Made by a program: the position numbers and the translations under genes. Shown here piece by piece: positions 2 through 13,275 of a stretch of DNA of 13,275 bases. This DNA comes from a virus: the UHGV virus genome UHGV-0356291; one strand, written 5' to 3'. Every line of letters starts with the position of its first letter. The first letter of the stretch is position 1. The notes under the pieces were generated by a model. The model ran no database searches. It saw nothing but the letters and a program-made list of their open reading frames with translations, and was not told the DNA's origin.

Positions 2-160
2 GAGCGATTGAACAAACAGTTCGCACAACTTGAAAGCGAGCGTCAGTCGTTCGAGCCGCACTGGCGCGAGTTGAGTGATTACATCAACCCGCGTGGTTCC
101 CGCTTTCTGACTTCTGAGGTTAACCGTAACGATCGACGCCACAACTTAACAGGGCCATAA
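2..160 (+). CDS. portal protein, N-terminal fragment (5'-partial; start codon upstream of window); terminated by TAA 158-160 in the present orientation
   Basis: Frame 2 is open from position 2 and reads ERLNKQFAQLESERQSFEPHWRELSDYINPRGSRFLTSEVNRNDRR, resembling from memory the N-terminal region of T7 gp8 (YERLKNDRAPYETRAQ...). Same frame as the 215-1633 ORF. Confidence 0.6.
   Translation, partial: ERLNKQFAQLESERQSFEPHWRELSDYINPRGSRFLTSEVNRNDRRHNLTGP
94..139. repeat. left arm of 46-bp perfect inverted repeat (partner 289-334)
   Basis: Exact reverse complement of 289-334, checked base by base; mismatch at 93/335 and 140/288 defines the ends. Confidence 0.95.
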
Positions 161-214
161 TCCATCATTTCAGGATCTGGCGTAGCCAGGCGAAACCACG
201 GACGCGCGGGGCTT

Positions 215-1633
215 GTGATGCCTGACATCATGCCGCTGGCGAGAGTGCGCGCCGCCATAGTCCCGGTCGAATCAATAATGCGTGTATTGCGTCGATCGTT
301 ACGGTTAACCTCAGAAGTCAGAAAGCGGGAACCAGGAAGCCTCGGCACATACAGCACTGGTGCAATGGCAGTGCTGGAGGATGACGAGGACATCATTCGC
401 ACAATGCCATTCCCGATAGGCAGTTACTACCTGGCTAACTCACCTCGTGGCAGTGTGGACACCTGTTTTCGCAAGTTCTCTATGACTGTTCGTCAGCTTG
501 TTCAGGAGTTCGGGCTAAATAACGTCAGCGAATCCGTAAAAAGCATGTGGGAAAGCGGAACCTACGAGAAGTGGATTGAAGTGATGCATTCGGTTTACCC
601 GAACATTGACCGCGATACATCGAAGCTGGATAGCAAGAACAAGCCATTCAAATCGGTTTATTACGAGGTTGGTGGCGATAACGACAAGTTGTTGCGTGAG
701 TCCGGATTCGATGAGTTTCCAATTATGGCTCCGCGCTGGGAAGTTAACGGCGAAGATGTTTATGGATCATCATGCCCGGGTATGCTGGCGCTTGGACCTG
801 TTAAGGCATTGCAGCTTCTCCAGAAGCGCAAGTCGCAGTTGATTGATAAAGCCACCAATCCGCCGATGGTTGCTCCGACTTCCCTCAAGAATCAGCGTGC
901 CTCCCTTCTTCCTGGCGACATCACGTATATCGATCAGATTACTGGTCAGGATGGTTTCAGGCCTGCTTATCTGGTTAACCCCAGTACAGCAGATTTGGTG
1001 GCAGACATTCAGGACACCCGTCAAATCATTAACAGCGCCTACTTTGTCGATCTGTTCATGATGTTGCAGAACATCAATACCCGCTCGATGCCTGTTGAAG
1101 CGGTGATCGAAATGAAAGAAGAAAAACTTCTGATGTTGGGGCCGGTTCTGGAGCGTCTGAACGACGAATGTCTTAATCCTCTCATTGACCGCGCTTTCTC
1201 GATGATGGTGCGTAAAAACATGCTGCCGCCACCGCCTGACGCGATGGAAGGTATGCCCCTGAAGGTCGAATACATTTCCGTCATGGCTCAGGCGCAGAAG
1301 TCTATCGGCCTGTCCAGTCTGGCGTCTACGGTCAACTTCATTGGTCAACTTGCGCAAGCGAAACCAGAAGCTCTCGACAAACTCAACGTTGATCAGGCGA
1401 TCGATGCATTCGCTGATATGTCCGGAGTGTCTCCAACCGTCATTGTTCCGCAGGAACAGGTTGAGCAGGCTCGCCAGCAACGGGCACAGCAACAACAGCA
1501 GCAACAAATGATGGCGATGGGGATGGCGGCGGCACAGGGTGCCAAGACGCTAAGCGAAGCTAAAACTTCGGATCCGAGTGTTTTGTCAGCTATGGCGAAT
1601 GCAGTTAGTGGTCAGGGTGGGCAATCACAATGA
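215..1633 (+). CDS. portal (head-to-tail connector) protein, T7 gp8-like; 5' region disrupted, so ATG 215 is probably not the native start
   Basis: 472-aa ORF. C-terminus QQRAQQQQQQQMMAMGMAAAQGAKT matches the Q-rich ...QQSMQMGMDNGAAALAQGMAAQ tail I recall from T7 gp8. No Shine-Dalgarno before ATG 215; first ~25 codons are antisense of the flipped segment. Confidence 0.8.
   Translation: MMPDIMPLARVRAAIVPVESIMRVLRRSLRLTSEVRKREPGSLGTYSTGAMAVLEDDEDIIRTMPFPIGSYYLANSPRGSVDTCFRKFSMTVRQLVQEFGLNNVSESVKSMWESGTYEKWIEVMHSVYPNIDRDTSKLDSKNKPFKSVYYEVGGDNDKLLRESGFDEFPIMAPRWEVNGEDVYGSSCPGMLALGPVKALQLLQKRKSQLIDKATNPPMVAPTSLKNQRASLLPGDITYIDQITGQDGFRPAYLVNPSTADLVADIQDTRQIINSAYFVDLFMMLQNINTRSMPVEAVIEMKEEKLLMLGPVLERLNDECLNPLIDRAFSMMVRKNMLPPPPDAMEGMPLKVEYISVMAQAQKSIGLSSLASTVNFIGQLAQAKPEALDKLNVDQAIDAFADMSGVSPTVIVPQEQVEQARQQRAQQQQQQQMMAMGMAAAQGAKTLSEAKTSDPSVLSAMANAVSGQGGQSQ
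289..334. repeat. right arm of 46-bp perfect inverted repeat (partner 94-139)
   Basis: Exact reverse complement of 94-139. Confidence 0.95.
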
Positions 1634-1926
1634 CAGATTACGAAGACGATCAACTGAAAGAAGAAAACGCCCGTAAGCAACGTGACATGGCACAGCGTGA
1701 AATTGATGACATTTGCTTTGTCATGAGCAGTGAACAGGGGCGTCGCGTTGTCTGGTCGGTGCTGGAGAAAGGCCGTGTGTTTTCCGCTATCTCACCGATG
1801 GACGCTATGGCTATGGCATTTAATGAGGGGCAACGCAATCTGGCGCTGGAACTGTTTCAGCGCGTTATGGCGCATTGCCCTGAACAGTATTTGAAGATGG
1901 CCAAAGAGGCCAGTGAACAGGAGTGA
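1630..1926 (+). CDS. hypothetical protein (98 aa), between portal and scaffold
   Basis: ATG 1630 overlaps portal stop (ATGA); stop TGA 1924-1926 overlaps next gene; acidic/charged protein; no function recognised. Confidence 0.55.
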   Translation: MTDYEDDQLKEENARKQRDMAQREIDDICFVMSSEQGRRVVWSVLEKGRVFSAISPMDAMAMAFNEGQRNLALELFQRVMAHCPEQYLKMAKEASEQE

Positions 1927-1928
1927 TC

Positions 1929-2624
1929 ATGAATTTATTTGAGCGTTTGCTGTATCGCCGTCTTTGCAATGAGCAACCAGTCGATGGTGGAGCAGCTCCG
2001 GCTGCGTCAGAACCGTCAGCGCCTGCAGGTGATAACCCTGCTCCAGTTGGTGATCCATCACAACCGGAAGGTGATAAGCCACAACCTGTTGCTGATGGCG
2101 ATAAACCTGCTGATGACAAAAAGCCTGAAAACGATAAGCAGGATGAAAAAAAGGACGGCGATAAAACAGAGGGTGCGCCTGAGAAGTACGAGTTTCAGGC
2201 TGCCGAAGGCGTAGAGCTGGATACAGAAGCGTTGAAGGAATTCGAGCCGGTGGCGCGAGAACTAAACCTGACCAACGAGCAAGCGCAAAAGCTGGTTGAT
2301 GCTTATCCGAAGATTCTGGCAGGTGTTCAGCAGCGCCAGGCAGAAGCCTGGCAGAAAACAACCGAGCAGTGGGCTGCTGATGTAAAAGCTGACAAAGAAA
2401 TCGGTGGCGACAAGTTGATTTCTAACCTTAGCGCCGCACAGCGTGCGCTTGACCAGTTCGGGACACCTGAACTCAAAGAATATCTGAACACCACCGGGCT
2501 GGGTAATCACCCTGATCTGGTCAAAACGTTCGTGAAAATCGGAAAGGCGATGTCTGAAGATGGCATGGTCACCGGTGGTAATGAAGGCCAGCGTAGTGCG
2601 GCCGAAGTGCTCTATGGCAAATAA
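1929..2624 (+). CDS. putative scaffolding (capsid assembly) protein
   Basis: AGGAG at 1919-1923, 5 nt before ATG 1929 (six-frame track starts at in-frame GTG 1923). Highly acidic, Pro/Asp/Lys-rich N-terminal half, helical-looking C-terminal half, sits directly upstream of the capsid gene as T7 gp9 does. Confidence 0.6.
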   Translation: MNLFERLLYRRLCNEQPVDGGAAPAASEPSAPAGDNPAPVGDPSQPEGDKPQPVADGDKPADDKKPENDKQDEKKDGDKTEGAPEKYEFQAAEGVELDTEALKEFEPVARELNLTNEQAQKLVDAYPKILAGVQQRQAEAWQKTTEQWAADVKADKEIGGDKLISNLSAAQRALDQFGTPELKEYLNTTGLGNHPDLVKTFVKIGKAMSEDGMVTGGNEGQRSAAEVLYGK

Positions 2625-2638
2625 GAGAGGAAATGACA

Positions 2639-3625
2639 ATGGCTGTTAAAGGCTTAACTGCGCTAACGCTGGCTGACTGGGGTAAGCGCGTCGATCCAAA
2701 CGGGAAAGTCGATAAGATTATCGAGCTTCTCGGTCAAACTAACCCGATCCTTCAGGATATGCCTTTTGTCGAAGGGAACCTTCCTACCGGACACCGAACC
2801 ACCATTCGTTCTGGTTTACCTTCAGCTACCTGGCGTTTGCTGAACTATGGCGTACAGCCAAGCAAATCAACCACAGTACAGGTAACCGATTCCGTTGGCA
2901 TGCTGGAAACCTATGCGGAAGTCGATAAGTCACTGGCTGATCTGAACGGCAATACCGCCGAATTCCGCCTGTCTGAAGACCGCGCATTTATTGAAGCGAT
3001 GAATCAGCAGATGGCGCAGACGCTGTTTTATGGTGATTCCAGCGTTAACCCTCAGCAGTTTATGGGACTGTCCTCCCGCTATTCCAGCCTGTCTGCGGGT
3101 AATGCTCAGAACATCATTGATGCTGGTGGCACGGGTACAGATAACACCTCAATCTGGTTAGTGGTGTGGGGCGAAAACACCGTGCATGGCATCTTCCCGA
3201 AAGGGCAGAAGGCTGGCATCCAGATGGAAGATAAAGGCCAGGTGACACTGGAAGATGCTAATGGCGGCAAGTACGAAGGCTATCGCACCCATTACAAATG
3301 GGATAACGGACTTGCTCTGCGTGACTGGCGTTATGTTGTTCGCATTGCAAACATCGATGTCAGCAATCTTTCAGAACCTTCCTCTGCCGCAAATATTGCG
3401 AAGTTGATGGTTAAAGCACTGCATCGCATTCCAAATCGTGGCATGGGTCGCCCGGTGTTCTACATGAACCGCACTGTAGGCCAGGCTCTTGATCTGCAAT
3501 CTCTGGAGAAAACATCTCTGGCGATCAGCGTAAAAGAGACAGAAGGCGAGTGGTGGACTTCATTCCGTGGTGTACCAATCCGTGAAACTGATGCGCTTCT
3601 GGAAACAGAAGCCCGCGTGGTGTAA
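2639..3625 (+). CDS. putative major capsid protein (~328 aa)
   Basis: GAGG at 2627-2630, 8 nt before ATG 2639 (ATG 2633 is too close to the SD). Position after scaffold and size close to T7 gp10A (~345 aa from memory); called by synteny, no specific motif recognised. Confidence 0.6.
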   Translation: MAVKGLTALTLADWGKRVDPNGKVDKIIELLGQTNPILQDMPFVEGNLPTGHRTTIRSGLPSATWRLLNYGVQPSKSTTVQVTDSVGMLETYAEVDKSLADLNGNTAEFRLSEDRAFIEAMNQQMAQTLFYGDSSVNPQQFMGLSSRYSSLSAGNAQNIIDAGGTGTDNTSIWLVVWGENTVHGIFPKGQKAGIQMEDKGQVTLEDANGGKYEGYRTHYKWDNGLALRDWRYVVRIANIDVSNLSEPSSAANIAKLMVKALHRIPNRGMGRPVFYMNRTVGQALDLQSLEKTSLAISVKETEGEWWTSFRGVPIRETDALLETEARVV

Positions 3626-3641
3626 CGCCTGTTATTAACCT

Positions 3642-3661
3642 GTGGGTCGTAACAGACCCAC
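3642..3661 (+). promoter_or_regulatory. RNA stem-loop just downstream of capsid stop (GTGGGTC-gtaaca-GACCCAC)
   Basis: 7-bp GC-rich perfect stem with 6-nt loop, 17 nt after TAA 3623-3625; no U-tract follows, so not a classic intrinsic terminator. Confidence 0.5.
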
Positions 3662-3676
3662 TAATGGAGAAAGAAG

Positions 3677-4114
3677 ATGATCACCGACAAACTGTTGATG
3701 TTCTCCGAAGCACAGGCGGTAACTGATACCGCGGCTTCTACTGACGTAATCGATCTCGGTCCAATTGACGGAAAACGTCGTGATATCGGCGTGGGTTACC
3801 CGCTTGAGTTTTGGGCGCTGGTTAACACAGCCGCCGCAGCAAGCGGTGATGCAACTGTAAACATCCAGTTGCAGACGAGTGAGGATAACAGCTCATGGTC
3901 CACTATTTATGATAGTGGCGCACTGGCAAAGGCCACCCTGACAGCAGGTAAGCGAGTTGTTTCTGCAAAGGTGCCAGCCGGTGTTCAGCGATATCTGCGT
4001 GTTAACTACTCCGTCGCAACTGGCCCACTAACGGCTGGCAAATTCACTGCGGGTATCAATCTTGATGTTGATGCCAATACGCCGTATCCGATCCGCTCAA
4101 AAGTAACTGGTTAA
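3677..4114 (+). CDS. hypothetical virion-associated protein (145 aa)
   Basis: GGAG 3666-3669, 7 nt before ATG 3677; Ala/Thr/Gly-rich beta-like composition; no homolog named. Confidence 0.6.
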   Translation: MITDKLLMFSEAQAVTDTAASTDVIDLGPIDGKRRDIGVGYPLEFWALVNTAAAASGDATVNIQLQTSEDNSSWSTIYDSGALAKATLTAGKRVVSAKVPAGVQRYLRVNYSVATGPLTAGKFTAGINLDVDANTPYPIRSKVTG

Positions 4115-4124
4115 GGTGATATTG

Positions 4125-4460
4125 ATGTCAGGTGAGAAACCAAGATACCGCGTTCTGCGCCTCTCTCATATCCATAACACTCTGTGGCCGGAGGGGGCAG
4201 AAATCGAATACGAAGGTGAGCCTGGTAGCGCACTGGAACCTGTTAACGATGCAGCCAGACAGGCAAAAGCAAAAGTTGCAGGAAAAGAGTCAATGGCAGC
4301 AACCAGCACCAAAATCATCAACGATGTGTCAGATGATGGTGAACTGGATAAGCTCCGTGAAGAGTACGAATTGCTCTTTAACGAGAAGCCACACCATAAC
4401 GCCAAAGCCGAAACGCTCCGCGAGAAGATCGCAGATAAGCGTAAAGAACTGGGCGTGTAA
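4125..4460 (+). CDS. hypothetical protein (~112 aa)
   Basis: AAGGTG 4113-4118, 6 nt before ATG 4125 (track starts at GTG 4116); charged C-terminal half; followed immediately by an intrinsic terminator. Confidence 0.6.
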   Translation: MSGEKPRYRVLRLSHIHNTLWPEGAEIEYEGEPGSALEPVNDAARQAKAKVAGKESMAATSTKIINDVSDDGELDKLREEYELLFNEKPHHNAKAETLREKIADKRKELGV

Positions 4461-4478
4461 GCCTCGCGGATCAGACAA

Positions 4479-4498
4479 GGGGCTTCGGCCCCTTTATT
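4479..4498 (+). terminator. rho-independent terminator (GGGGC-ttcg-GCCCC then TTTATT)
   Basis: GC stem with UUCG tetraloop and U-rich tail, 19 nt after stop 4458-4460; stem can extend to AAGGGGC/GCCCCTT from 4477. Confidence 0.6.
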
Positions 4499-4510
4499 GC
4501 AGGAGTGTAT

Positions 4511-4834
4511 ATGGAACTCGTAAACCTCAAAACCGGCACTGACAGCTACCAGGATGAGAGCGGAGAAACCAGAACTCGCGATGAATACCCGTGGGGGCTG
4601 TGCATCACTCTTAATAACGACACATTGAATAAGCTGAAGGCGCAACCTCAGGGCGTCGGAACAGAAGTGATGATAACTGCAAAGGCTGTTATTCGAGGCC
4701 TGTCTGCCAGAGAAACTGACGATGGTGTTAATCGCAGCGCCGATCTGCAGATCACTGATATGGCGATCGCTCCTGTTTCCGGGGATGTAGAAAAATCAGC
4801 GGCTGAAACCCTGTACGGCAATGGGGGTGAGTAA
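4511..4834 (+). CDS. hypothetical protein (~107 aa) with scaffold-like C-terminal tail
   Basis: AGGAG 4500-4504, 6 nt before ATG 4511 (track starts at GTG 4505); C-terminus ...VEKSAAETLYGNGGE parallels scaffold C-terminus ...GQRSAAEVLYGK; stop TAA overlaps next ATG (TAATG). Confidence 0.6.
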   Translation: MELVNLKTGTDSYQDESGETRTRDEYPWGLCITLNNDTLNKLKAQPQGVGTEVMITAKAVIRGLSARETDDGVNRSADLQITDMAIAPVSGDVEKSAAETLYGNGGE

Positions 4835-5439
4835 TGGCCTCTGTAGTAGAGATCTGCAATCGTGCGCTGTCCAATATTGGCAATAGCCGCAGCATTAACA
4901 GCCTGACGGAAGCCAGCAAGGAAGCGGGGGAATGTTCGCTGCACTTTGAGGCCTGCCGTGATGCTGTGCTTTCTGATTTTGACTGGAACTTTGCTACCAA
5001 ACGCGTGGCGCTGGCAGATACGAGCAATCCACCGCCTGACTGGGAATATGCGTATCAGTACCCGTCCGATTGTCTGCGCATTACTGAAATTATGCTTCCT
5101 GGTGTACGCAATCCAACAGCAGCAATGCGCGTTCAGTACGAAGTAGGTGTAGACACCAACGGAACAGGAAAGTTGATCTACACAGACCAGCCTCAGGCAT
5201 GGCTCAAGTATGTCTCTCGCGTTACAGATGTGAACATGTTTGATGCCATTTTTATGGAGGCGTTGGCCTGGCGTCTTGCGGCAGCTATTAACATGGCGCT
5301 GACTGGGAATGCAGACCTCGGTACGTTTGCCCTCAATATGTACAATCGCGTGATTCTTAGTGCTGGCTCGCATAGCCAGAATGAATCACAGGAACCACAG
5401 CCACCGGTTGACGAGTTTACCATTGCGAGGTTGTCCTGA
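4834..5439 (+). CDS. putative tail tubular protein A (T7 gp11-like)
   Basis: 201 aa versus ~196 aa for T7 gp11 (from memory); N-terminal ICNRALSNIGNSRSINSLTEA resembles T7 gp11 AVNDILASIGEPPVSTLEG; followed by a ~800-aa gene as in T7. Confidence 0.55.
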   Translation: MASVVEICNRALSNIGNSRSINSLTEASKEAGECSLHFEACRDAVLSDFDWNFATKRVALADTSNPPPDWEYAYQYPSDCLRITEIMLPGVRNPTAAMRVQYEVGVDTNGTGKLIYTDQPQAWLKYVSRVTDVNMFDAIFMEALAWRLAAAINMALTGNADLGTFALNMYNRVILSAGSHSQNESQEPQPPVDEFTIARLS

Positions 5440-7910
5440 TGGCTATCAGTTGGATACAGCCCAGCTTTGCCGGTGGTGAGATTGGACCGTCGTTGTACGG
5501 TCGTATCGACATGGCGAAGTACCAGGTGGCATTGCGCAAGTGCGATAACTTTATCGTGCGGCAGTATGGCGGCGTTGAGAATCGACCTGGTACGCGTTTT
5601 GTCGGTGCCGCCAAATACCCAAATCGGAAATGCCGCCTGATCCCGTTCCAGTTCTCGACGGTTCAGACCTATGCTCTGGAGTTCGGACACCAGTACATGC
5701 GCGTTATCAAAGATGGTGCGTTGGTGCTGAACAGCAGCAATGTTATTTATGAAATTTCCACGCCATATACTGAAGCCGATCTGTTCCGAATTAAATTCAC
5801 GCAAAGCGCAGACGTGCTTACGCTGGTTCATCCGGCATACCCGCCGAAAGAGTTGCGCCGCTATGCGCATGACAACTGGCAACTGGTTGATGTGGTAACG
5901 AAGAACGGGCCATTTGAAGATATCAATATTGACGAGTCAGTGACGGTTTATGCCAGCGCCAGCACCGGGACAATTACGTTAACGGCAAGCGCCTCTATTT
6001 TTGGCGCGGAGCAGGTAGGCAAATTGTTCTATCTGGAACAGCCTGCAGTGGATTCTGTGCCGGTATGGGAAACCAGTAAGAGTACGTCGATTGGCGATAT
6101 TCGCCGTGCAGACAGTAACTACTATCGCGCCGTTACAGCAGGCAAAACAGGTACTTTGCGCCCTTCGCATACAGAAGGCACATCATGGGATGGCTGGGGC
6201 GGATCCGGTGATGATGATACTGGCATTGAGTGGGAGTATCTGCACAGTGGTTTTGGCATTGCCCGTATCACTGCTGCAAATGGCACTACTGCAACTGCTG
6301 AGGTGATTTCCTATATCCCTTCGCAGGTCGTTGGCGAGGATAATGCCAGCTATAAATGGGCTAAATATGCCTGGAACAGTGTTAATGGTTATCCTGGCAC
6401 TGTTGTTTATTATCAACAACGTCTTTACTTCGCCGCATCGACTGCGTTTCCTCAGACTATCTGGGCCAGCCGTACCGGGGATTATAAGGATTTTGGCAAA
6501 AGCAATCCTACGCAGGATGACGACAGAATTATCTACACCTATGCCGGACGTCAGGTTAATGAGATCCGCCACCTGATTGATGTTGGTTCTCTGGTGGCGC
6601 TGACTTCCGGAGGTGAGTACGTCATCACCGGCGACCAGAACAAAGTGTTAACCCCATCATCATTTGCATTCAGCTCTCAGGGATCAAATGGCTCAAGCAA
6701 CGTCCCGCCAATTGCCGTGGCGAATATTGCTCTGTTCGTCCAGGAGAAAGGCAGCGTTGTCCGTGATCTGGCCTACTCATTCGATGTTGACGGCTATCAG
6801 GGGAACGACCTGACCATCCTTGCCAATCATCTTTTTCAGAAGCACAGCATTGTTGACTGGTGCTTCTCGATTGTCCCTTACTCCAGTGCCTTCTGCATTC
6901 GTGATGACGGTAAATTACTGGTGATGACCTATTTGCGTGATCAGCAGGTTTTTGCATGGGCACCACAATCCAGTACCGGAAAATATGAAAGCACATGCAG
7001 TATCAGCGAAGGCAATGAAGATGCGGTGTATTTCGTCGTTAACCGAACCGTTAACGGGCAAACAGTGAGATACATCGAGCGACTGTCCAGCCGTTTATTT
7101 ACCAGCGATGAAGATGCTTTCTTTGTTGATTCTGGCCTTAGCTATGATGGAAGAAATACGTCTGACAGAACGATGACCATCACTGGTGGTTCTGGTGAAT
7201 GGGATTACCATGCGGAATATACAATCAGTGTTTCTGGTGGTGCGTACTTCACCAGTAGTGATGTCGGCGCGCAACTACAGTTCCCTTATACCGGAACTGA
7301 TCCTGATACTGGCGATGAAGTGTCAAAAGAATTACGTTGCGACATTATTTCTGTAACCAGCAATACCGCTGTAGTGGTTCGTGCTAACAGGAACGTCCCG
7401 CCATCCCTCAGGAATGTGGCCACCACGAACTGGCAGATGGCGCGCCGGACATTTGGCGGCTTGTCTCATCTTGAAGGCCAGACCGTAAACATCCTCTCTG
7501 ATGCGAACGTGGAACCACAGAAAGTGGTTTCCGGAGGTGCCGTCACGCTGGAATCTCCGGGGGCTGTAGTGCACATCGGCCTGCCAATAACTGCTGAATT
7601 CGAAACACTGGATATCAACATTAACGGACAGGAAACGCTGCTGGACAAAAAACAGGTGATCCCGTCCGTTACTCTGGTTGTGAATGCCAGTCGCGGCATC
7701 TGGGCGACTACGCCCGGCGGTAAATGGTACGAATATCCACAGCGTGAATTCGAGTTCTACGATGATCCTGTTGATGATGCTACCGGAAAAGTAGAAGTGA
7801 AACTGGACAGTAACTGGGGCAAAAACGGACGTGTAAAAATCCGTCAGCTTGATCCGTTGCCGCTGTCTGTTCTTGCCGTTATTCCTCGCCTTACTGTTGG
7901 GGGATTCTGA
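5439..7910 (+). CDS. putative tail tubular protein B / nozzle (T7 gp12-like)
   Basis: 823 aa versus ~794 aa for T7 gp12 (from memory); start overlaps upstream stop (TGATG); N-terminus MAISWIQPSFAGGEIGP loosely resembles T7 gp12 MALISQSIKNLKGGISQQP; assignment mostly by size and order. Confidence 0.5.
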   Translation: MAISWIQPSFAGGEIGPSLYGRIDMAKYQVALRKCDNFIVRQYGGVENRPGTRFVGAAKYPNRKCRLIPFQFSTVQTYALEFGHQYMRVIKDGALVLNSSNVIYEISTPYTEADLFRIKFTQSADVLTLVHPAYPPKELRRYAHDNWQLVDVVTKNGPFEDINIDESVTVYASASTGTITLTASASIFGAEQVGKLFYLEQPAVDSVPVWETSKSTSIGDIRRADSNYYRAVTAGKTGTLRPSHTEGTSWDGWGGSGDDDTGIEWEYLHSGFGIARITAANGTTATAEVISYIPSQVVGEDNASYKWAKYAWNSVNGYPGTVVYYQQRLYFAASTAFPQTIWASRTGDYKDFGKSNPTQDDDRIIYTYAGRQVNEIRHLIDVGSLVALTSGGEYVITGDQNKVLTPSSFAFSSQGSNGSSNVPPIAVANIALFVQEKGSVVRDLAYSFDVDGYQGNDLTILANHLFQKHSIVDWCFSIVPYSSAFCIRDDGKLLVMTYLRDQQVFAWAPQSSTGKYESTCSISEGNEDAVYFVVNRTVNGQTVRYIERLSSRLFTSDEDAFFVDSGLSYDGRNTSDRTMTITGGSGEWDYHAEYTISVSGGAYFTSSDVGAQLQFPYTGTDPDTGDEVSKELRCDIISVTSNTAVVVRANRNVPPSLRNVATTNWQMARRTFGGLSHLEGQTVNILSDANVEPQKVVSGGAVTLESPGAVVHIGLPITAEFETLDININGQETLLDKKQVIPSVTLVVNASRGIWATTPGGKWYEYPQREFEFYDDPVDDATGKVEVKLDSNWGKNGRVKIRQLDPLPLSVLAVIPRLTVGGF

Positions 7911-8391: not shown

Positions 8392-8494
8392 GCTTTGGTT
8401 GCCGTCACAGTGGCATACGCTGATCCGCTTCAATATTCCCACGATTGATTGAATCCTGTGCCTGAGCTTCAGCAATTTCAGCATTCCGATCAGC
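8392..8494. repeat. rotated inverted copy of 8551-8651 (two blocks: 8392-8416 and 8417-8494)
   Basis: 8392-8416 is the reverse complement of 8551-8575 and 8417-8494 is the reverse complement of 8574-8651, both exact. Confidence 0.95.
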
Positions 8495-8495
8495 T

Positions 8496-9041
8496 ATGGC
8501 TGACTGGTATTTTGCCTGCTTGCTCTGGCTGTACATTGACGCGGCTGTGGATGCCACTGTGACGGCAACCAAAGCTGATCGGAATGCTGAAATTGCTGAA
8601 GCTCAGGCACAGGATTCAATCAATCGTGGGAATATTGAAGCGGATCAGCGTCGTCGTGAAATGCGTCAACGCTCAGGCACTGCGGCGGCCACTATGGGGG
8701 CTACCGGTGCGGAATTAAGTAGCGGAACAGCTCTTGACGTTTTTGCGGATAATGCTCAGTTCGGCACTCTTGATGCGTTAACGACAGTGAATAATGCTCA
8801 GCGTGAGGCATATGGGTATCAGGTTCAGGGAATGAATGCTCAGGCACAGGGGGCTGCTGCTCAGTCGGCTGCTAAATCATCGATGACCAGCACTTTGTTA
8901 ACGGCACCACTAAAAGCATACGGTGCATATAAGTTGGGTAGCGGAAGTATCAATCCGATTAGTAAGCAAGGAAACACGCCAATGTTATCTAACTCAGGTT
9001 TTATGAATTCTGACTCCCGATTCAAAATAGGAGGTTACTGA
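8496..9041 (+). CDS. putative internal virion protein (181 aa), T7 gp14-like position
   Basis: ORF with hydrophobic N-terminus (WYFACLLWLYIDAAV) and Ala/Gln-rich middle; no SD before ATG 8496 and in-frame TGA at 8463-8465; stop overlaps next ATG. Confidence 0.55.
   Translation: MADWYFACLLWLYIDAAVDATVTATKADRNAEIAEAQAQDSINRGNIEADQRRREMRQRSGTAAATMGATGAELSSGTALDVFADNAQFGTLDALTTVNNAQREAYGYQVQGMNAQAQGAAAQSAAKSSMTSTLLTAPLKAYGAYKLGSGSINPISKQGNTPMLSNSGFMNSDSRFKIGGY
8551..8651. repeat. in-gene partner of the upstream inverted copy 8392-8494
   Basis: Encodes in frame DATVTATKADRNAEIAEAQAQDSINRGNIEADQR of the 181-aa ORF, so this copy is the coding original. Confidence 0.95.
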
Positions 9042-11788
9042 TGCCTGTTGTTCCTACTACATCCGGACGCCAGGTGCAAAGTCGTGGTGTGCAAACCGGT
9101 GGTTTTCAGACCTTCGATGTTCCTCAAGCAGGTCAGGTGCTGGCGAATGTCGCAGATCAGTATGCGGTGGCATATGGTGAAGCCAGGCAGAAAGCGAATG
9201 TTGCTATGGCCCAGGAGGCGTTACTGCAATTTAACCAATTTGCAGATGACCAGATTAACAACCCTGAAAATGGGCTGATTTCTAAACAGGGTAAAAACGC
9301 TCTTGGTCAGAGTGACGCTGTTATGAAAAATATGCAGGAAAGGGCTCAGGCATTATTAGGCTCAATTCCTGAAAGTGAGGAAAGGAATAAATTATCCTTT
9401 CAACTCCAGCAGTCTATGCAGTCTTATTACAATCAGGCACGTCGATATGAAGTTGGGCAGTTTCAGCAATTCCAAGATCAAACGTATTTGTCAGGAAATG
9501 CATTGGCTGTCACTCAGTCTGCGGGGCTATATAGCGATAACCAAGCATTTGTCGATTTAGCCAAGCAGCGATTTGAATCTATTGATCAATACGCTGATGC
9601 GCATGGGCTTCCTGATGAGTGGCGTGTTCAGCAGAAAACTCAGCTCAAGGAACAAATGGGGCAGCAAGCATGGATAGGAAATATCGCTCAAAAATACAAC
9701 GAGTTTCTTCAGGTTAATGGAGAGCCAGGGGATCTTGATGGTGTGAGTCGTGCAATATCACATGGTAATTCATTGGATGCTCGTGGTTTACGTAATAATA
9801 ACCCCGGTAATATTGAAGCGAGCAAATCTAACCCGTGGGAAGGTCAGATCGGTAGCGATGGACGTTTTGCAACGTTTGCTACCCCTGAGCATGGAATCCG
9901 CGCGTTGGGTAAAAATATGTTGTCTTACCAGCGTCAAGGCTATGACACCGTTAGCGAGATTGTTAATCGCTATGCTCCGGCTAGTGATGGTAATAATACT
10001 GATGCTTATATTAGGGCATTGTGTGGTGAGCTTGGTGTTGGGGAGAATGATCAGCTTGATATCTCTAACCCAAAGACACTAGCTGCTTTATGTGCTGGGA
10101 TTATTAAACACGAAAATGGCAGTATGCCTTATAGCACCGAACAGCTTGAAACTGGTATCTCGGCAGCCCTTGGTCTAACTAACCTTGATTCACCTAAGCG
10201 TTATACGGGCAATGCGGCATTTGATGCTATGAGCCCTCAAATGCAAATACAGGCATTGAGGCAGGCTAATGAGCTGAGAAATCAGTACCGCCAGCAGTAT
10301 GCGGACCAGCTTAGCACCGTAGTTAAAGATGCATATTCAGCCCTTGATGAAGGATTGAAACCTGAGAAGTTACCTTCTGAGGACGATTTTATCCGGGCCA
10401 ATGGTCCGCGCATTGGCGCTATGAAGTGGAAGGATATGCAGGCGCAGATACAATATGGAGGTGTCATTGGTGCCGCTAAAGACCTCACTCCAGAAGGACG
10501 GCAAGACATTCTTGAACGTTTACGTCCACAGGATCCAAACGCTCCTGGATTTGCAGCTAACCAGCAACGCTGGGAGAAAATGCAGGCCAAATTTAAAGAG
10601 ATGGATAGGGAGTGGGAGATTCAGCAGGGAAGAAACAGGTTCGTGTCTTCAATGCAAAATAACTTCCCGCTGGACCCGAACGACAAAAACAATCAGGCAG
10701 CGGTAGACCGTTATTTCGCGCAGGATATCGCGCCTTCGTTTTCCATATCTGATCCGCAGAGCATCAATACACTGGTCACCGTCACAACTAAAAGCGGCAT
10801 GATACCAACTCAGATTAAAACAATGCTTAACAGTGGAGCGACATCAAGAGATCCTGCGCTGGTTGTCCCGATGGCAAAATTCTACGGTCAGTTATTCGAT
10901 AATAATCCGGCGGCAGCGGCAACACTTGATAAAAGTACGATGGCATTTTACGGCAAGGTTTACGATTATTCCCGCGCTGGCGTGCCGGAGGATAAGGCTG
11001 TTGATATGGCTTACAGCCAGGTGTTCCAACAGGATGACCGAATGAAACAGATGCTTTCCACTGCCATGCGAGACAAAAAATATGTCGCGGCGAGGGCAAC
11101 TGCTGCACAAAATAACGCCAGCAGTCTGACTTCCTTTGGTTCGTGGTCTCCGGATATTACCGATCCAGGAAAATCAAATGCGGCCTATCAGCGAGATTAC
11201 CAGACAATTTACGATGCTAACTTTGTACAGACAGGTGGCGATGCAGAACAGGCTGAGAAAATGACCAATGCCATGATCAGAACCACTTGGGGAGTTTCTA
11301 CGGTTAATGGCAAAGCAGAGGTTATGAAGTATGCACCTGAGGCATTGTACGGAGTAAATAATGGTGCTGGTAACTGGATACAGGGGCAGTGGGAGCAGGA
11401 AAAACGCGAGCTTAAATCAAAATCCTTTGGCGGTCCTCGCAGTGATACGGACTTAATACTTGTTTCTGATGGCCTTACGGCAAGGGATAGGAGTTATGCT
11501 GTTATGGTTTTACAGCCTGACGCAAACGGAGCGATAGAACCGAGAAATTATATTGGAGAAAATGGTCTCCCTGTTCGTTTCAAGCCGGATCAGCTGACAT
11601 CTCCAATGTACAGGCAAACCATTCAGTTCCAGCAACAGCGTGTTGATGAGGCTAGAGTGCGGAGAGAAGGCAATCCGCTGCCGCAGTTCAGCAATAAAGA
11701 TGGATATACTCCTCCAGATCTGACAAAACCATTCGGTTATGGTTCAGCCAATTACCTTCCGAGCAATATATACGCAGGGGGCAAATAA
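9041..11788 (+). CDS. putative internal virion / ejection protein (915 aa) with a conserved-looking RNNNPGNI...RYAP block
   Basis: Long ORF coupled to flanking genes (TGATG / TAATG); Gln-rich; position equals T7 gp15/gp16; lower GC than upstream genes. Confidence 0.7.
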   Translation: MPVVPTTSGRQVQSRGVQTGGFQTFDVPQAGQVLANVADQYAVAYGEARQKANVAMAQEALLQFNQFADDQINNPENGLISKQGKNALGQSDAVMKNMQERAQALLGSIPESEERNKLSFQLQQSMQSYYNQARRYEVGQFQQFQDQTYLSGNALAVTQSAGLYSDNQAFVDLAKQRFESIDQYADAHGLPDEWRVQQKTQLKEQMGQQAWIGNIAQKYNEFLQVNGEPGDLDGVSRAISHGNSLDARGLRNNNPGNIEASKSNPWEGQIGSDGRFATFATPEHGIRALGKNMLSYQRQGYDTVSEIVNRYAPASDGNNTDAYIRALCGELGVGENDQLDISNPKTLAALCAGIIKHENGSMPYSTEQLETGISAALGLTNLDSPKRYTGNAAFDAMSPQMQIQALRQANELRNQYRQQYADQLSTVVKDAYSALDEGLKPEKLPSEDDFIRANGPRIGAMKWKDMQAQIQYGGVIGAAKDLTPEGRQDILERLRPQDPNAPGFAANQQRWEKMQAKFKEMDREWEIQQGRNRFVSSMQNNFPLDPNDKNNQAAVDRYFAQDIAPSFSISDPQSINTLVTVTTKSGMIPTQIKTMLNSGATSRDPALVVPMAKFYGQLFDNNPAAAATLDKSTMAFYGKVYDYSRAGVPEDKAVDMAYSQVFQQDDRMKQMLSTAMRDKKYVAARATAAQNNASSLTSFGSWSPDITDPGKSNAAYQRDYQTIYDANFVQTGGDAEQAEKMTNAMIRTTWGVSTVNGKAEVMKYAPEALYGVNNGAGNWIQGQWEQEKRELKSKSFGGPRSDTDLILVSDGLTARDRSYAVMVLQPDANGAIEPRNYIGENGLPVRFKPDQLTSPMYRQTIQFQQQRVDEARVRREGNPLPQFSNKDGYTPPDLTKPFGYGSANYLPSNIYAGGK

Positions 11789-12957
11789 TGCCGATATATG
11801 AACAGGATCCTAAAGAGTTGCTTGGCGAGGGTATTCAGCAAATAGCAGCACCTGATGACAGTAATTTCTATATGGAAACACCTTCTTTGCTTTCTGCTGT
11901 GAACCCATTTACCAGTGATCAACGCGTTCAAAGGTCTAGACAAGCAGCATTTCGTATAGATAACACGCTGGGTAGCTTTATTGCCAGTGCTCCTTTCAGT
12001 CAGTTTGACAGGGTTGAAGGATATAACCCATTTGATAACGATGCAGCAGATATTAAAGGCTATGAAGATTTTGCAGATTCGTTTATCAACTCCGGTTCGC
12101 ATGAAGAAACAATGGCAATTAAACATCGAATCGATCAGCAGAGAGCTGACATGGAATACAATTCAGGCTTGGGATTTGCTGGTACAGTCTCTTCTGTAGC
12201 AATGAGATTAGCAGATCCATTCAATGCGATTTCTATGTTTATTCCGTTCGGCGCTGTCGTTCGTGGCGGTCGTATTGCAGAAACAGCCGGACGTTTTGCT
12301 TTAGCCAATGCTGCTGGCAGTGTTGCTTCAGAGGCCGCATTGCAGGCCACTCAGGAAGCTCGCTCACCGATGGAGAGCGTATCGAACGTTGTTGTTGATG
12401 CTCTCGTTGGTGGGATCCTTGGTGCTGGTGCACAGCTACTTGCTGGACCTAGCGCGCGCGAGGCAGTGGTTAACTCAGTAGGTAATCATTTGCGAGGTAT
12501 GGATTCTCCTCAAAGCATTGGTGCAGCTCAGGTTTTCAATACCACACTCGATCAGGAACAGCTTGCTGGACTTGGACTTGCTAACAAAACGTTGAGTGTC
12601 ACTCCTGCTGGCCGCTTGGCGCAATCACCATCTCTTGTTTCCCGTCAGATTAACCAGCAGCTTGCCGAAAATAACTATTTCTTCGCCAAAAATGATGAGG
12701 GGTTGGCTACGTTTACGGCAGTCGAGACTAAGATTAAGCAATACGACGCCATGCTTTATAAGCAGATGGAAGCTACTCGTGATGCTTACCAGCAGTACAG
12801 CAAATCTGTCAGCGCCCGCGGCGTGAAGAGGATGAACTTTATTGATTTCAATGAAGCTGTTGGCATGGCTATGCGCCGTGGTGATCAGAGTGATATTCCT
12901 GAGGTTTCACAAGCTTTTCAATTCGCTGACCTGCTTTGTCAGCACCTTTGGCACTAA
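11788..12957 (+). CDS. putative internal virion protein, apparently truncated at 389 aa by an inverted-duplication insert
   Basis: ATG overlaps upstream stop; ORF ends at TAA 12955-12957 inside the inverted copy; frame resumes at 13062 after the direct repeat. Confidence 0.65.
   Translation: MPIYEQDPKELLGEGIQQIAAPDDSNFYMETPSLLSAVNPFTSDQRVQRSRQAAFRIDNTLGSFIASAPFSQFDRVEGYNPFDNDAADIKGYEDFADSFINSGSHEETMAIKHRIDQQRADMEYNSGLGFAGTVSSVAMRLADPFNAISMFIPFGAVVRGGRIAETAGRFALANAAGSVASEAALQATQEARSPMESVSNVVVDALVGGILGAGAQLLAGPSAREAVVNSVGNHLRGMDSPQSIGAAQVFNTTLDQEQLAGLGLANKTLSVTPAGRLAQSPSLVSRQINQQLAENNYFFAKNDEGLATFTAVETKIKQYDAMLYKQMEATRDAYQQYSKSVSARGVKRMNFIDFNEAVGMAMRRGDQSDIPEVSQAFQFADLLCQHLWH
12899..12914. repeat. 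direct repeat CTGAGGTTTCACAAGC, copy 1
   Basis: Identical to 13060-13075; both copies sit at the boundaries of the inverted copy. Confidence 0.9.
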
Positions 12958-13060
12958 TCCCTTGTATCCAGTTGGCAATTCGCCCTCTGAATTCAGTGCG
13001 GTCGGAAAGTATCTTATCGAACTTATAAATGCGGGGAAGATAACTCTTCGCCGTCACGAC
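12940..13060. repeat. inverted copy (121 bp visible) of 13155-13275
   Basis: Exact reverse complement of 13155-13275; may extend left to 12915 if the partner continues beyond the window end. Confidence 0.95.
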
Positions 13061-13075: not shown

Positions 13076-13275
13076 AGCCGCCAGAATCCGCCCCATTTTT
13101 GAGACCACAAAAGCCCGTATGCAGGAATTGGGGATCCTTCCTGAGGATATCGATGTCGTGACGGCGAAGAGTTATCTTCCCCGCATTTATAAGTTCGATA
13201 AGATACTTTCCGACCGCACTGAATTCAGAGGGCGAATTGCCAACTGGATACAAGGGATTAGTGCCAAAGGTGCTG
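13062..13275 (+). CDS. continuation of the 11788 gene (3'-partial, runs off window)
   Basis: Frame 3 open from 13062 to window end: EVSQAAARIRPIFETTKARMQELGILPEDIDVVTAKSYLPRIYKFDKILSDRTEFRGRIANWIQGISAKGA; begins with the same EVSQA as the upstream direct-repeat copy. Confidence 0.5.
13155..13275. repeat. downstream partner of inverted copy 12940-13060 (coding orientation)
   Basis: Exact reverse complement of 12940-13060; lies in the open frame continuing the last gene. Confidence 0.95.

What the first reader, a model, noticed from the sequence alone, without database searches (positions are those of the whole stretch)
4760..4819. Small protein shares a ~20-aa C-terminal tail with the scaffold protein
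The scaffold ends MSEDGMVTGGNEGQRSAAEVLYGK (2550-2621) and the 107-aa protein ends MAIAPVSGDVEKSAAETLYGNGGE. That is M-x4-V-[TS]-G-x3-[RK]-SAAE-[VT]-LYG in both, encoded with different codons, so it is protein-level conservation and not a recent DNA duplication. Scaffold C-termini are the coat-binding element in several phages, and encapsulin cargo proteins are targeted by shared C-terminal peptides. By analogy the small protein may be co-packaged into the procapsid via the same coat-binding tail, as an internal or pilot protein or a scaffold competitor.
Basis: inference. Interest (0 to 1): 0.55.

Follow-up and report, generated by a model that had tools for sequence, protein, structure and literature searches.

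The report
Shared capsid-docking tail on two proteins
A small phage head protein long mislabelled as an outer "capsid staple" ends in the same short peptide as the scaffolding protein, and the two tails co-evolve with each other and with the coat protein. This points to a portable tag that docks proteins onto the coat protein inside the assembling head.

Summary
The window is the head and tail gene module of an E. coli phiV10/epsilon15-like podophage. The 107-aa protein (4511-4834) is the homologue of epsilon15 gp10 (Pfam PF21628, PDB 3J40_N).

The shared tail is real, but it covers about 10 residues, not 20: [RK]SAAE[VT]LYG. It sits after a variable linker in both proteins, and the two copies use different codons.

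It is far beyond chance:
- 96% of 137 diverse gp10 relatives carry it, and its Tyr is invariant.
- Nearly all of 113 related loci carry it on both proteins.
- The two tails co-vary by lineage (LYG, FYP, RLYxAS, RAAK[LF]Y, RMY); 0 of 200,000 permutations reach the observed score.
- Tail type follows the coat-protein cassette, not the portal, the tail genes or the bodies of the two proteins.

Published maps assign the outer "staple" density to gp8/Bbp16-like cement protein, not gp10.

Best reading: a coat-docking peptide shared by the scaffold and gp10, which recruits gp10 into the procapsid. Freshwater relatives have two further small proteins with the tag. Binding and location are inferred, not shown. 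This is a new variant of a known principle (80alpha scaffold/SaPI1 CpmB; encapsulin cargo peptides).

The parts
1929..2624 (+). Head scaffolding protein gene (epsilon15 gp6 / BPP-1 Bbp18 homologue; databases call it 'peptidase' or 'protease').
   Evidence: It lies between the portal/Bbp19-like genes and the major capsid protein gene. It matches PHROG 458 but has no Pfam, NCBIfam or PDB match. The AF2 model is all-alpha: a disordered acidic/Pro-rich N-terminal part, helices 99-210, a linker at 211-218 and a terminal helix at 219-229. Mean pLDDT is only 50, so this is secondary-structure-level evidence.
2592..2621 (+). Scaffold C-terminal tail core, RSAAEVLYGK.
   Evidence: In the comparison with epsilon15, DNA identity drops from about 70-90% to about 50% at roughly 2575, so the tail is inherited with the coat-protein cassette and not with the rest of the scaffold gene.
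2633..3625 (+). Major capsid protein (HK97 fold; epsilon15 gp7 / BPP-1 Bbp17 type). Proposed receptor of both tails.
   Evidence: Pfam PF20911 at 2e-149. PDB 3J4U_A, 8CJZ_Y and 3J40_A. Its identity between genomes is the best predictor of tail similarity: Spearman 0.715, rank-regression coefficient 0.49. Tail type follows the capsid protein type in mosaic genomes.
3677..4114 (+). Bbp16-like jelly-roll cement protein (epsilon15 gp8). This is the real outer 'staple'.
   Evidence: Pfam PF21190 at 4e-47. PDB 3J4U_H 'cementing protein' at 1e-27 and 8CJZ_B. The literature reassigns the staple density to this protein.
4116..4460 (+). gp9-like small protein of unknown role. It belongs to the same divergent cassette and has no tail motif.
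   Evidence: PHROG 590. Its C-terminus lacks the motif. It lies within the low-identity cassette.
4511..4834 (+). 107-aa gp10-like protein (epsilon15 gp10 / BPP-1 Bbp20 family, 'capsid staple protein' in NCBI).
   Evidence: Pfam PF21628 at 1e-51. PDB 3J40_N at 2e-21. 3392 cluster representatives at E<=1e-3. The AF2 model (pLDDT 76) has a beta-rich body with a long hairpin at 53-88. No fold match outside its own family.
4763..4792 (+). Variable, probably disordered linker of gp10 (residues 85-94, AIAPVSGDVE).
   Evidence: It is not conserved among homologues. pLDDT is about 50 for residues 91-100 and below 50 at 92-94.
4793..4819 (+). gp10 tail core KSAAETLYG (residues 95-103; Tyr102 invariant), followed by NGGE.
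   Evidence: Predicted short helix at 97-102.

Best explanation
The last ~10 residues before the extreme C-terminus of the 107-aa protein ([KR]-S-A-A-[DE]-x-L-Y-G) are a short docking peptide. It sits on a flexible linker, probably forms a short helix, and centres on an invariant Tyr. The same peptide ends the head scaffolding protein.

Both tails most likely bind the same site on the major capsid protein, on the inner face of the assembling procapsid. The small protein would then be recruited into the procapsid alongside, or in competition with, the scaffold. It would act as a co-assembled internal accessory protein (cargo or auxiliary scaffold), not as the outer 'staple' its database name implies.

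Shown here:
- The tail is real and conserved across the family.
- The two tails co-evolve.
- Tail type is inherited with the capsid-protein cassette.
- In some relatives the tag is carried by two further, unrelated small proteins.

Inferred, not shown:
- That the partner is the capsid protein, rather than the co-inherited gp8 or gp9.
- That the binding site is on the inside.
- What the beta-rich body of the protein does, and whether it stays in the virion.
For: 1. Identity. The window is a phiV10/epsilon15-like head module, 98-99% identical to vB_EcoP_ZX5 and phiV10. The small protein belongs to the gp10 family.

2. Conservation.
- The linker varies while K[ST]AA[EDQ]TLYG is kept down to 60% identity.
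- The Tyr is invariant across 17 deep lineages.
- 132 of 137 representatives of 50%-identity clusters keep the motif.

3. Both proteins carry the motif in nearly all of 113 loci. These come from Enterobacterales, Bordetella, Burkholderia, Xanthomonas, Caulobacter, freshwater phages, and Acidobacteria and Planctomycetota MAGs.

4. Lineage-specific co-variation (scaffold / gp10):
- window: RSAAEVLYGK / KSAAETLYGN
- epsilon15: SDLISAFYPKK / KELKDAFYPDG
- BPP-1: DARRLYAASNMNP / AAQRLYGASSMSA
- BcepC6B: ARAAKLYD / QRAAKFYA
- CP2: WNRMYPD / YARMYAD
- L182: AKKMFPNM / TKEMYPSM
- L177: ASALYSNQ / ASMLYSGQ

The mean same-genome BLOSUM62 score is 15.5 against 4.3 cross-genome in 13 lineages, and 13.2 against 6.7 in 28 lineages. 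None of 200,000 permutations reaches the observed value in either set. In 15 of 21 genomes, gp10 is the best-matching ORF C-terminus to that genome's own scaffold tail.

5. Not DNA copying: synonymous codons differ.

6. The partner.
- Between the window and epsilon15, the low-identity cassette runs from about 2575, inside the scaffold's last codons, to the gp10 stop at 4834. The flanks are 70-90% identical.
- L084 has an epsilon15-like portal (93%) and gp12 (94%), but a window-like capsid protein (86%) and LYG tails.
- L087-L090 have scaffold and gp10 bodies about equidistant from both references, but a window-like capsid protein (79-88%) and LYG tails.
- Over 1830 genome pairs, capsid protein identity predicts tail similarity best. 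Spearman is 0.715, against 0.62 for gp8, 0.57 for the scaffold body, 0.54 for the portal and 0.51 for the gp10 body. Rank-regression coefficients are 0.49 for the capsid protein, and 0.10 and -0.07 for the two bodies.

7. Modularity.
- Freshwater DC33-like phages have two further conserved small ORFs ending ...SQMAEKMYPAKDKEKKKG and ...ESAAEKLYGKDKDKK.
- Some gp10 proteins carry two tandem copies of the motif.

8. Not the outer staple.
- PMC9207676 reassigns the staple density to the 130-aa gp8.
- The BPP-1 shell (3.5 A) and the PhiXacm4-11 shell (3.16 A) contain only the capsid protein and the Bbp16-like cement protein.
- The gp10 AF2 model is not a jelly roll.

9. Precedent. The 80alpha scaffold and SaPI1 CpmB share a C-terminal helix-and-hook that binds the same site on the capsid protein (PMC5644958).
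Against: - No direct evidence of binding or location. Complex prediction was not possible with the tools.
- gp8 and gp9 lie in the same co-inherited cassette, so they cannot be excluded as partners by the mosaic data alone. gp8 identity also correlates with tail similarity (0.62).
- Genome pairs in the correlation analysis are not independent.
- In the freshwater clade, the scaffold tail (ALYSNQQ) and the gp10 tail (MLYGxx) keep family-specific differences. There, the own-genome rank is often not 1.
- High-resolution mature capsids of relatives report no extra ordered density for a bound tail. If gp10 stays in the virion, it is not icosahedrally ordered.
- In BPP-1 only Bbp17 and Bbp16 were prominent gel bands.
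- Virion presence of epsilon15 gp10 rests on a proteomic identification that the later authors themselves call putative.
- That gp6 is a scaffold is inferred from gene position and an all-helical, low-confidence model.
Confidence: 0.6

Rival explanations
1. The tails bind another product of the co-inherited cassette, not the capsid protein: the cement protein gp8 (Bbp16-like) or the small gp9. For example, the scaffold and gp10 might hold or deliver the cement protein.
For: gp8 and gp9 lie inside the same low-identity cassette as the tails. gp8 identity correlates with tail similarity at Spearman 0.62, with a rank-regression coefficient of 0.22.
Against: Capsid protein identity is the stronger predictor: 0.715 and 0.49. 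The cement protein sits on the outside of the expanded shell, whereas scaffolds act inside procapsids (established knowledge; PMC5644958). gp9 is poorly conserved: 43-51% among LYG-type genomes whose capsid protein is 79-88% identical. Its counterparts in BPP-1 and BcepC6B are short and divergent.
Confidence: 0.12
2. The two similar tails bind each other, or mediate scaffold-gp10 co-oligomerisation. gp10 would then ride on the scaffold and not on the coat protein.
For: Co-variation of two similar short helices is also what a direct homotypic contact would produce. Both tails are predicted to be short helices.
Against: This does not explain why the tails are exchanged together with the capsid cassette while the scaffold body is not. 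Nor does it explain why capsid protein identity predicts tail type better than either carrier protein does. Four unrelated proteins carry the tag in some phages, which fits a common receptor better.
Confidence: 0.1
3. gp10 is what the databases say, an outer capsid staple or decoration protein, and its resemblance to the scaffold tail is incidental.
For: PDB 3J40 chains labelled gp10 and the NCBI name 'capsid staple protein'. A 2025 paper still repeats the staple model.
Confidence: 0.04
4. The motif is a processing or degradation signal, for example a cleavage site for a head protease or a tag for a host protease or chaperone, and not a docking peptide.
For: The scaffold family is widely annotated 'peptidase/protease'. 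Head maturation proteases exist in many phages.
Against: No protease domain is found in the module. The BPP-1 capsid proteins are not cleaved. Cleavage next to the Tyr would remove only 1-10 residues. E. coli and Salmonella phages that share hosts carry different tail types, and the type follows their capsid cassette, not the host.
Confidence: 0.04

Closest known systems
Epsilon15 gp10 / BPP-1 Bbp20 family (Pfam PF21628 'Gp10-like'; NCBI 'capsid staple protein'; PDB 3J40 chains H-N)
   Same: Clear sequence homologue: 173.6 bits to PF21628 and 2e-21 to 3J40_N. It has the same conserved YPWGL and LQITD motifs, lies in the same head module, and ends in the same type of C-terminal tail.
   Different: The family's published function and structure (outer staple) are very probably wrong. 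The tail and its match to the scaffold tail were not described in any paper found. The window's tail is the LYG type; epsilon15's is the FYP type.
Staphylococcal phage 80alpha scaffolding protein and SaPI1 CpmB (competing scaffolds; PMC5644958)
   Same: Two proteins with unrelated bodies share a roughly 16-residue C-terminal helix plus conserved motif. It binds the same site on an HK97-fold capsid protein inside the procapsid.
   Different: CpmB is encoded by a satellite that hijacks the phage and changes capsid size. Here both proteins come from the same phage and are conserved together across many genera. The motifs differ in sequence (RIIK versus AAxxLYG). CpmB is a helical dimer, whereas gp10 is beta-rich. 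Binding has been shown structurally for 80alpha and not at all here.
Encapsulin cargo-loading peptides
   Same: A short C-terminal peptide on a flexible linker is shared by unrelated proteins and directs them to the inner face of an HK97-fold shell. Here up to four protein families carry the tag.
   Different: The sequence motif is different. The shell here is a DNA-packaging phage head with a scaffold. Sufficiency of the tag for loading is untested.
Nested protease/scaffold genes that share a capsid-binding C-terminus (herpesvirus UL26/UL26.5; lambda C/Nu3). From general knowledge, not checked here.
   Same: More than one head-assembly protein ends in the same capsid-binding tail.
   Different: In those systems the shared tail comes from in-frame overlapping genes, so the DNA is identical. 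Here the two genes lie 1.9 kb apart with different codons.
T4 internal proteins with a capsid targeting sequence (from general knowledge; reviews listed)
   Same: Small proteins are brought into the prohead by a short shared terminal peptide.
   Different: The T4 signal is N-terminal, targets the scaffolding core and is cleaved off by the prohead protease. No protease is present here, and the tag is C-terminal.

Membership tests
Epsilon15 gp10-like family (Pfam PF21628) | Match to the family profile above its gathering score | tested here: met
   173.6 bits against a cut-off of 27, covering residues 5-101 and profile positions 1-98 of 98. PDB 3J40_N at 2.1e-21.
Epsilon15 gp10-like family (Pfam PF21628) | Conserved core motifs (YPWGL, LQITD) and a position in the head-morphogenesis module | tested here: met
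   The invariant columns are Y26, P27, G29, L34, Q, I and the tail Tyr. The gene lies between gp9 and gp11 here and next to the portal gene in BPP-1, BcepC6B and CP2.
Capsid cement / 'staple' decoration proteins of epsilon15/BPP-1-type heads | Jelly-roll fold matching the outer two-fold density | tested here: not met
Capsid cement / 'staple' decoration proteins of epsilon15/BPP-1-type heads | An ordered, stoichiometric component of the mature shell | not testable with these tools
   Literature only. The BPP-1 and PhiXacm4-11 shells are fully accounted for by the capsid protein and the Bbp16-like protein. The PhiXacm4-11 proteomics table for the homologue, gp18, is held only as an image.
Scaffold-tail mimics (80alpha scaffold / SaPI1 CpmB type) | A C-terminal motif shared with the phage's own scaffolding protein | tested here: met
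   with co-variation shown.
Scaffold-tail mimics (80alpha scaffold / SaPI1 CpmB type) | The tail binds the same capsid-protein site as the scaffold tail, inside the procapsid | not testable with these tools
   Indirect support only: the tail is co-inherited with the capsid protein.
Scaffold-tail mimics (80alpha scaffold / SaPI1 CpmB type) | Encoded by a satellite or parasite and redirects capsid size | tested here: not met
   The gene is part of the phage's own head module in every lineage examined.
Cargo-loading / capsid-targeting peptides (encapsulin-like principle) | A short terminal peptide on a variable linker, shared by proteins with unrelated bodies | tested here: met
   The linker is variable and of low confidence. 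The scaffold, gp10 and two further small ORF families carry the tag.
Cargo-loading / capsid-targeting peptides (encapsulin-like principle) | The peptide is sufficient to load a foreign protein into the shell | not testable with these tools
   This needs an experiment, for example reporter-tail fusions.
Nested scaffold/protease genes sharing a C-terminus | The shared tail is encoded by the same DNA through in-frame overlap | tested here: not met
   The genes are separate, at 1929-2624 and 4511-4834. Only 3 of 7 identical residues use the same codon.
Phage scaffolding proteins (for the 231-aa partner) | Gene just upstream of the capsid protein gene, elongated helical protein, no enzymatic domain | tested here: inconclusive
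   The position is met in all loci. There is no Pfam, NCBIfam or PDB hit. The AF2 model is all-alpha, but mean pLDDT is only 50. Absence from virions was not checked.

The most novel reading that the evidence does not exclude
Epsilon15/BPP-1-type podophages use a portable C-terminal 'AAxxLYG' peptide as a general address label for the inside of the procapsid. The label copies the scaffold's coat-docking tail. Up to four unrelated proteins carry it: the scaffold, gp10 and two small basic proteins. It co-evolves with the coat protein.

gp10, the orphaned former 'staple', would then be an internal head protein loaded this way and possibly delivered to the host. The tag could be used to load foreign cargo into these phage heads.
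Probability: 0.35. Interest if true: 0.75.

Novelty: new variant of a known kind. Interest (0 to 1): 0.62.

Why it matters
Epsilon15 gp10 is a textbook 'capsid staple' with a PDB model, a Pfam family and an NCBI product name. Re-analysis took its density away and left a widespread protein with no known place or role. The family has 3392 cluster representatives at 50% identity, spread across many bacterial phyla.

The co-evolving tail gives that protein a concrete, testable mechanism: docking to the coat protein through the scaffold's own binding peptide.

It also marks the likely coat-binding element of a scaffold family for which no structure exists and which databases mislabel as a peptidase.

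If the tag proves sufficient for loading, it offers a simple handle for packaging proteins into BPP-1 or epsilon15-type heads. These heads are already of interest for display and engineering.

It also corrects annotations now propagated to thousands of prophage genes.

Tried and rejected
- **Structure prediction with a diverse alignment.** This also rules out fused or complex constructs.
- **A third tail on an ejection protein.** The window's gp15 ends ...SNIYAGGK, but epsilon15 gp13-gp18 have no such tail. This gp15 C-terminal region occurs in only 3 phage records. I treated it as coincidence.
- **Recent gene conversion or duplication.** Rejected on codon differences.
- **Portal as the partner.** Rejected because portal type does not follow tail type.
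- **Single-protein locus searches.** These returned only near-identical contigs. Diversity came from the genome scan and from an alignment led by a distant member.
- **Primary epsilon15 papers.** Jiang 2006 and Chang 2010 are not held. Virion presence of gp10 therefore rests on the summary in PMC9207676.
- **PhiXacm4-11 proteomics for the gp10 homologue (gp18).** The table is held only as an image.
- **The 2025 statement that gp10 staples the inner surface.** It cites the old model and rests on a map whose best region, the portal, reaches about 7 A, so it was not used as evidence.
- **Limnohabitans DC33 scaffold.** It spans the record origin, and my stitched copy lacks the tail, probably a stitching or frame problem. 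It was excluded.
- **Terminator scan.** It did not call the hairpin upstream of gp10.
Full report
**What the window is.** Megablast of 1600-5500 gives 98-99% identity to Escherichia phages vB_EcoP_ZX5, phiv142-3, phiV10 and TL-2011b (genus Uetakevirus, epsilon15-like podophages). Profile searches give the following gene order:

| Coordinates | Gene | Assignment |
|---|---|---|
| 215-1633 | portal | damaged at its 5' end, see below |
| 1630-1926 | gp5 | Bbp19-like |
| 1929-2624 | gp6 | 231 aa, upstream of the coat gene; no Pfam family; PHROG 'protease' |
| 2633-3625 | gp7 | major capsid protein, PF20911 |
| 3677-4114 | gp8 | Bbp16-like, PF21190 |
| 4116-4460 | gp9 | small protein, unknown role |
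| 4511-4834 | gp10 | the 107-aa protein, PF21628 'Gp10-like', 1e-51 |
| 4834-5439 | gp11 | tail tubular A-like |
| 5439-7910 | gp12 | tail tubular B-like |
| from 7910 | | internal virion proteins |

The order matches epsilon15 gp4-gp13 one for one.

**The observation.** The quoted peptides are at the stated coordinates. The ungapped shared core is [RK]SAAE[VT]LYG, about 10 residues (2592-2618 and 4793-4819). BLASTP of the two proteins finds exactly this segment (7 of 10 identical, E = 0.02). Only 3 of the 7 identical residues share a codon, and Ser is AGT in one and TCA in the other. So this is not a recent DNA copy.

**Who the 107-aa protein is, and why that matters.** It matches PDB 3J40 chain N, epsilon15 gp10 (2e-21). 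NCBI names the family 'capsid staple protein'. Hryc and Baker (PMC9207676) showed that the AlphaFold2 model of the 111-aa gp10 does not fit the 'staple' density (map-model correlation 0.10). The 130-aa protein, which is gp8 and Bbp16-like, does fit (0.61, or 0.81 after refinement). They concluded that the original assignment was probably wrong.

This agrees with two high-resolution shells of relatives:
- In BPP-1 (3.5 A), the shell is Bbp17 plus the jelly-roll cement protein Bbp16.
- In the CP2-like PhiXacm4-11 (3.16 A), the shell is fully modelled with the capsid protein gp25 and the jelly-roll cement protein gp26. The gp10 homologue there, gp18 (CP2 ORF12), is an unplaced hypothetical protein.

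**The tail is a family-wide feature of both proteins.**
- Among 117 close and medium relatives, the linker varies freely while K[ST]AA[EDQ]TLYG is kept.
- In an alignment of 17 deep lineages, the tail Tyr is one of only 7 invariant columns.
- Of 137 full-length representatives, 132 have a hydrophobic-aromatic dipeptide in the last 22 residues. 115 have a strict [LFM]Y, against 3 in a control stretch. The consensus is K-S-A-A-[DE]-x-L-Y-G, with a median of 4 residues after the Tyr.
- I collected 133 related loci from species genomes, IMG/VR and GenBank phages. In 113 of them, both the gp10 homologue and the ORF just upstream of the coat gene could be read. Nearly all carry the motif on both proteins.
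- A PSSM of the tail hits 231 of 4998 ORF C-termini on the gene strand, against 5 of 6434 on the opposite strand.

**The two tails co-evolve.** Each lineage has its own flavour, shared by its two proteins:

| Lineage | Scaffold tail | gp10 tail |
|---|---|---|
| window | RSAAEVLYGK | KSAAETLYGN |
| epsilon15 | SDLISAFYPKK | KELKDAFYPDG |
| BPP-1 | DARRLYAASNMNP | AAQRLYGASSMSA |
| BcepC6B | ARAAKLYD | QRAAKFYA |
| Xanthomonas CP2 | WNRMYPD | YARMYAD |
| Planctomycetota MAG | QAEVLYPG | FQVMYPG |
| L182 | AKKMFPNM | TKEMYPSM |
| L177 | ASALYSNQ | ASMLYSGQ |

I scored the 7 residues before and the 3 after the anchor Tyr. Same-genome pairs average 15.5 BLOSUM62 units against 4.3 for cross-genome pairs in 13 lineages. 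In 28 lineages the figures are 13.2 against 6.7. None of 200,000 permutations reached the observed value in either set. In 15 of 21 genomes, the gp10 homologue is the best match, among all ORF C-termini in the locus, to that genome's own scaffold tail. In the freshwater clade the two tails keep some family-specific residues, and the signal there is weaker.

**What the tails track.** A sliding identity profile between the window and epsilon15 is high (70-90%) up to about 2570. It falls to 40-60% from about 2575 to 4830, then rises again from 4835. The divergent cassette is therefore the last ~15 codons of the scaffold gene plus the capsid protein, gp8, gp9 and gp10, and it ends exactly at the gp10 stop.

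Natural mosaics separate the candidate partners:
- L084 has an epsilon15-like portal (93%), gp11 (89%) and gp12 (94%), but a window-type capsid protein (86%) and LYG tails.
- L087-L090 have scaffold and gp10 bodies about equally distant from both references (46-55%), but a window-type capsid protein (79-88%, against 42-44% to epsilon15) and LYG tails.
- No genome mixes an FYP tail with an LYG tail.

Over 61 loci (1830 pairs), tail similarity correlates with protein identity as follows:

| Protein | Spearman | Rank-regression coefficient |
|---|---|---|
| capsid protein | 0.715 | 0.49 |
| gp8 | 0.62 | 0.22 |
| scaffold body | 0.57 | 0.10 |
| portal | 0.54 | 0.17 |
| gp10 body | 0.51 | -0.07 |

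This analysis is descriptive, because the pairs are not independent. The portal, the tail genes and the carrier bodies are thereby disfavoured as partners. The capsid protein is favoured, and gp8 or gp9 are not excluded.

**The tag is modular.** In DC33-like freshwater phages, two further conserved small ORFs follow the gp10 gene. One is 53 aa (MPAKSEKQARFMQAVAH...SQMAEKMYPAKDKEKKKG). The other is 55 aa (MPGPGLWANIHAKRKR...ESAAEKLYGKDKDKK). Both are found in many contigs with amino-acid variation, and neither has a Pfam match above threshold. Some gp10 proteins carry two tandem copies of the motif, for example ...ATALYGAGSEGSRINNLSNALYGGG. The gp10 gene also moves within the head module. It lies after gp9 here, after the portal gene in BPP-1 (Bbp20), BcepC6B (gp06) and Caulobacter phages, and before the portal gene in CP2.

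**The partner protein.** The 231-aa protein has no Pfam, NCBIfam or PDB relative. Its 'peptidase' label is widely propagated. In the epsilon15 record, the label rests on similarity to a Salmonella 'putative endoprotease'. AF2 with a shallow alignment gives a low-confidence (pLDDT 50) all-helical protein: a disordered acidic/proline-rich N-terminal third, a Gly-rich linker at 211-218 and a terminal helix at 219-229. This fits a scaffolding protein but does not prove it.

**Mechanism proposed.** The tail is a coat-docking peptide, a short helix plus an aromatic anchor on a flexible linker. The scaffold uses it to bind the inner face of the capsid protein during procapsid assembly. gp10, and in some phages other small proteins, carry the same peptide and are recruited to the same sites as co-assembled internal proteins or as an auxiliary or competing scaffold.

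Conservation, co-variation, cassette linkage and modularity are shown. The identity of the receptor, the inner location and the fate of gp10 are inferred. Mature shells of relatives show no extra ordered density. gp10 is therefore either released with the scaffold or retained without icosahedral order. Proteomics putatively detected epsilon15 gp10 in virions.

**Comparison with known systems.** The closest mechanistic precedent is the 80alpha scaffold and SaPI1 CpmB. Their shared C-terminal helix-and-hook binds the same capsid-protein site (PMC5644958). There the mimic is a parasite's weapon. Here it is a conserved gene of the phage itself. The principle also resembles encapsulin cargo-loading peptides and, from general knowledge, the T4 capsid-targeting sequence and the nested protease/scaffold genes of herpesviruses and lambda. 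The last is excluded here, because the two genes are separate and use different codons. I found no paper describing the shared tail or a role for Bbp20 or gp10 beyond the staple model.

**Verdict.** The finding is a new variant of a known principle, and it also corrects the annotation of both proteins.

Noticed in passing
window 94-334 (portal gene 5' part): A perfect 46-nt inverted repeat (94-139 and 289-334) flanks 149 nt. Compared with vB_EcoP_ZX5, which is 100% identical on the flanks, window 138-334 is the reverse complement of the ZX5 segment and 74 nt are missing. The portal reading frame is therefore broken (N-terminal piece 8-160, the rest from 215). This is either a defective prophage or an assembly fold-back artefact.
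   Followed up: partly
window 8417-8502 / 8566-8651 and 12940-13060 / 13155-13275: Two more inverted duplications of the same style, with 86-nt arms (98% complementary) and 121-nt arms (100%). They lie at the gp13/gp14 junction and at the end of the window. The same peptide (ADRNAEIAEAQAQDSINRGNIEADQR) is encoded on both strands. Neither touches the region of the finding.
   Followed up: no
L159 7330-7491 and 7495-7662 (also L134-L184 and the DC33-like contigs): Two conserved small ORFs (53 and 55 aa, lysine-rich ends) lie directly after the gp10 homologue. Each ends in the same AEKMYP / AAEKLYG motif as the scaffold and gp10. Neither has a Pfam match above threshold.
   Followed up: partly
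L101 6007-6375 (Manatee Spring phage); also L148-L150, L185, L191-L192, L196, L198, L202-L204: Some gp10 homologues carry two tandem copies of the tail motif about 17 residues apart (...ATALYGAGSEGSRINNLSNALYGGG). In a few of them (L148-L150, L191-L192) the second copy lacks the Tyr (...STMLGAP).
   Followed up: no
window 4477-4500: A GC-rich hairpin (GGGGCTTCGGCCCC) followed by TTTATT lies between gp9 and gp10. The epsilon15 record annotates rho-independent terminators at the same position. If it works, gp10 and the tail genes would be expressed below the capsid protein and gp8 level. The consensus scan did not call it, and the fold z-score of the 61-nt stretch is unremarkable.
   Followed up: partly
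window 1929-2624: The scaffold-like protein is named 'peptidase' or 'protease' across NCBI, PHROGs and phage records. No protease domain is detectable and the predicted structure is all-helical, so the name is probably a propagated historical annotation.
   Followed up: partly
window 11486-11785 (end of the 915-aa gp15-like protein): This C-terminal region occurs in only 3 phage records (EC.W1-9 and two Klebsiella phages). It is absent from phiV10, ZX5 and epsilon15, so the window is mosaic downstream of gp12. It ends ...SNIYAGGK, which superficially resembles the tail motif. Epsilon15 gp15 has no such end.
   Followed up: partly
proteins P0021 and P0117: Two metagenome-derived proteins join a fragment 100% identical to gp10 with a ClpP protease Pfam domain (PF00574). 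These are probably chimeric short contigs or gene calls.
   Followed up: no
L097 4763-5341 (BcepC6B gp06): The annotated 192-aa product has an arginine-rich N-terminal extension of about 78 residues that is absent from all relatives. The real start is probably the internal MNLVSMKL.
   Followed up: no
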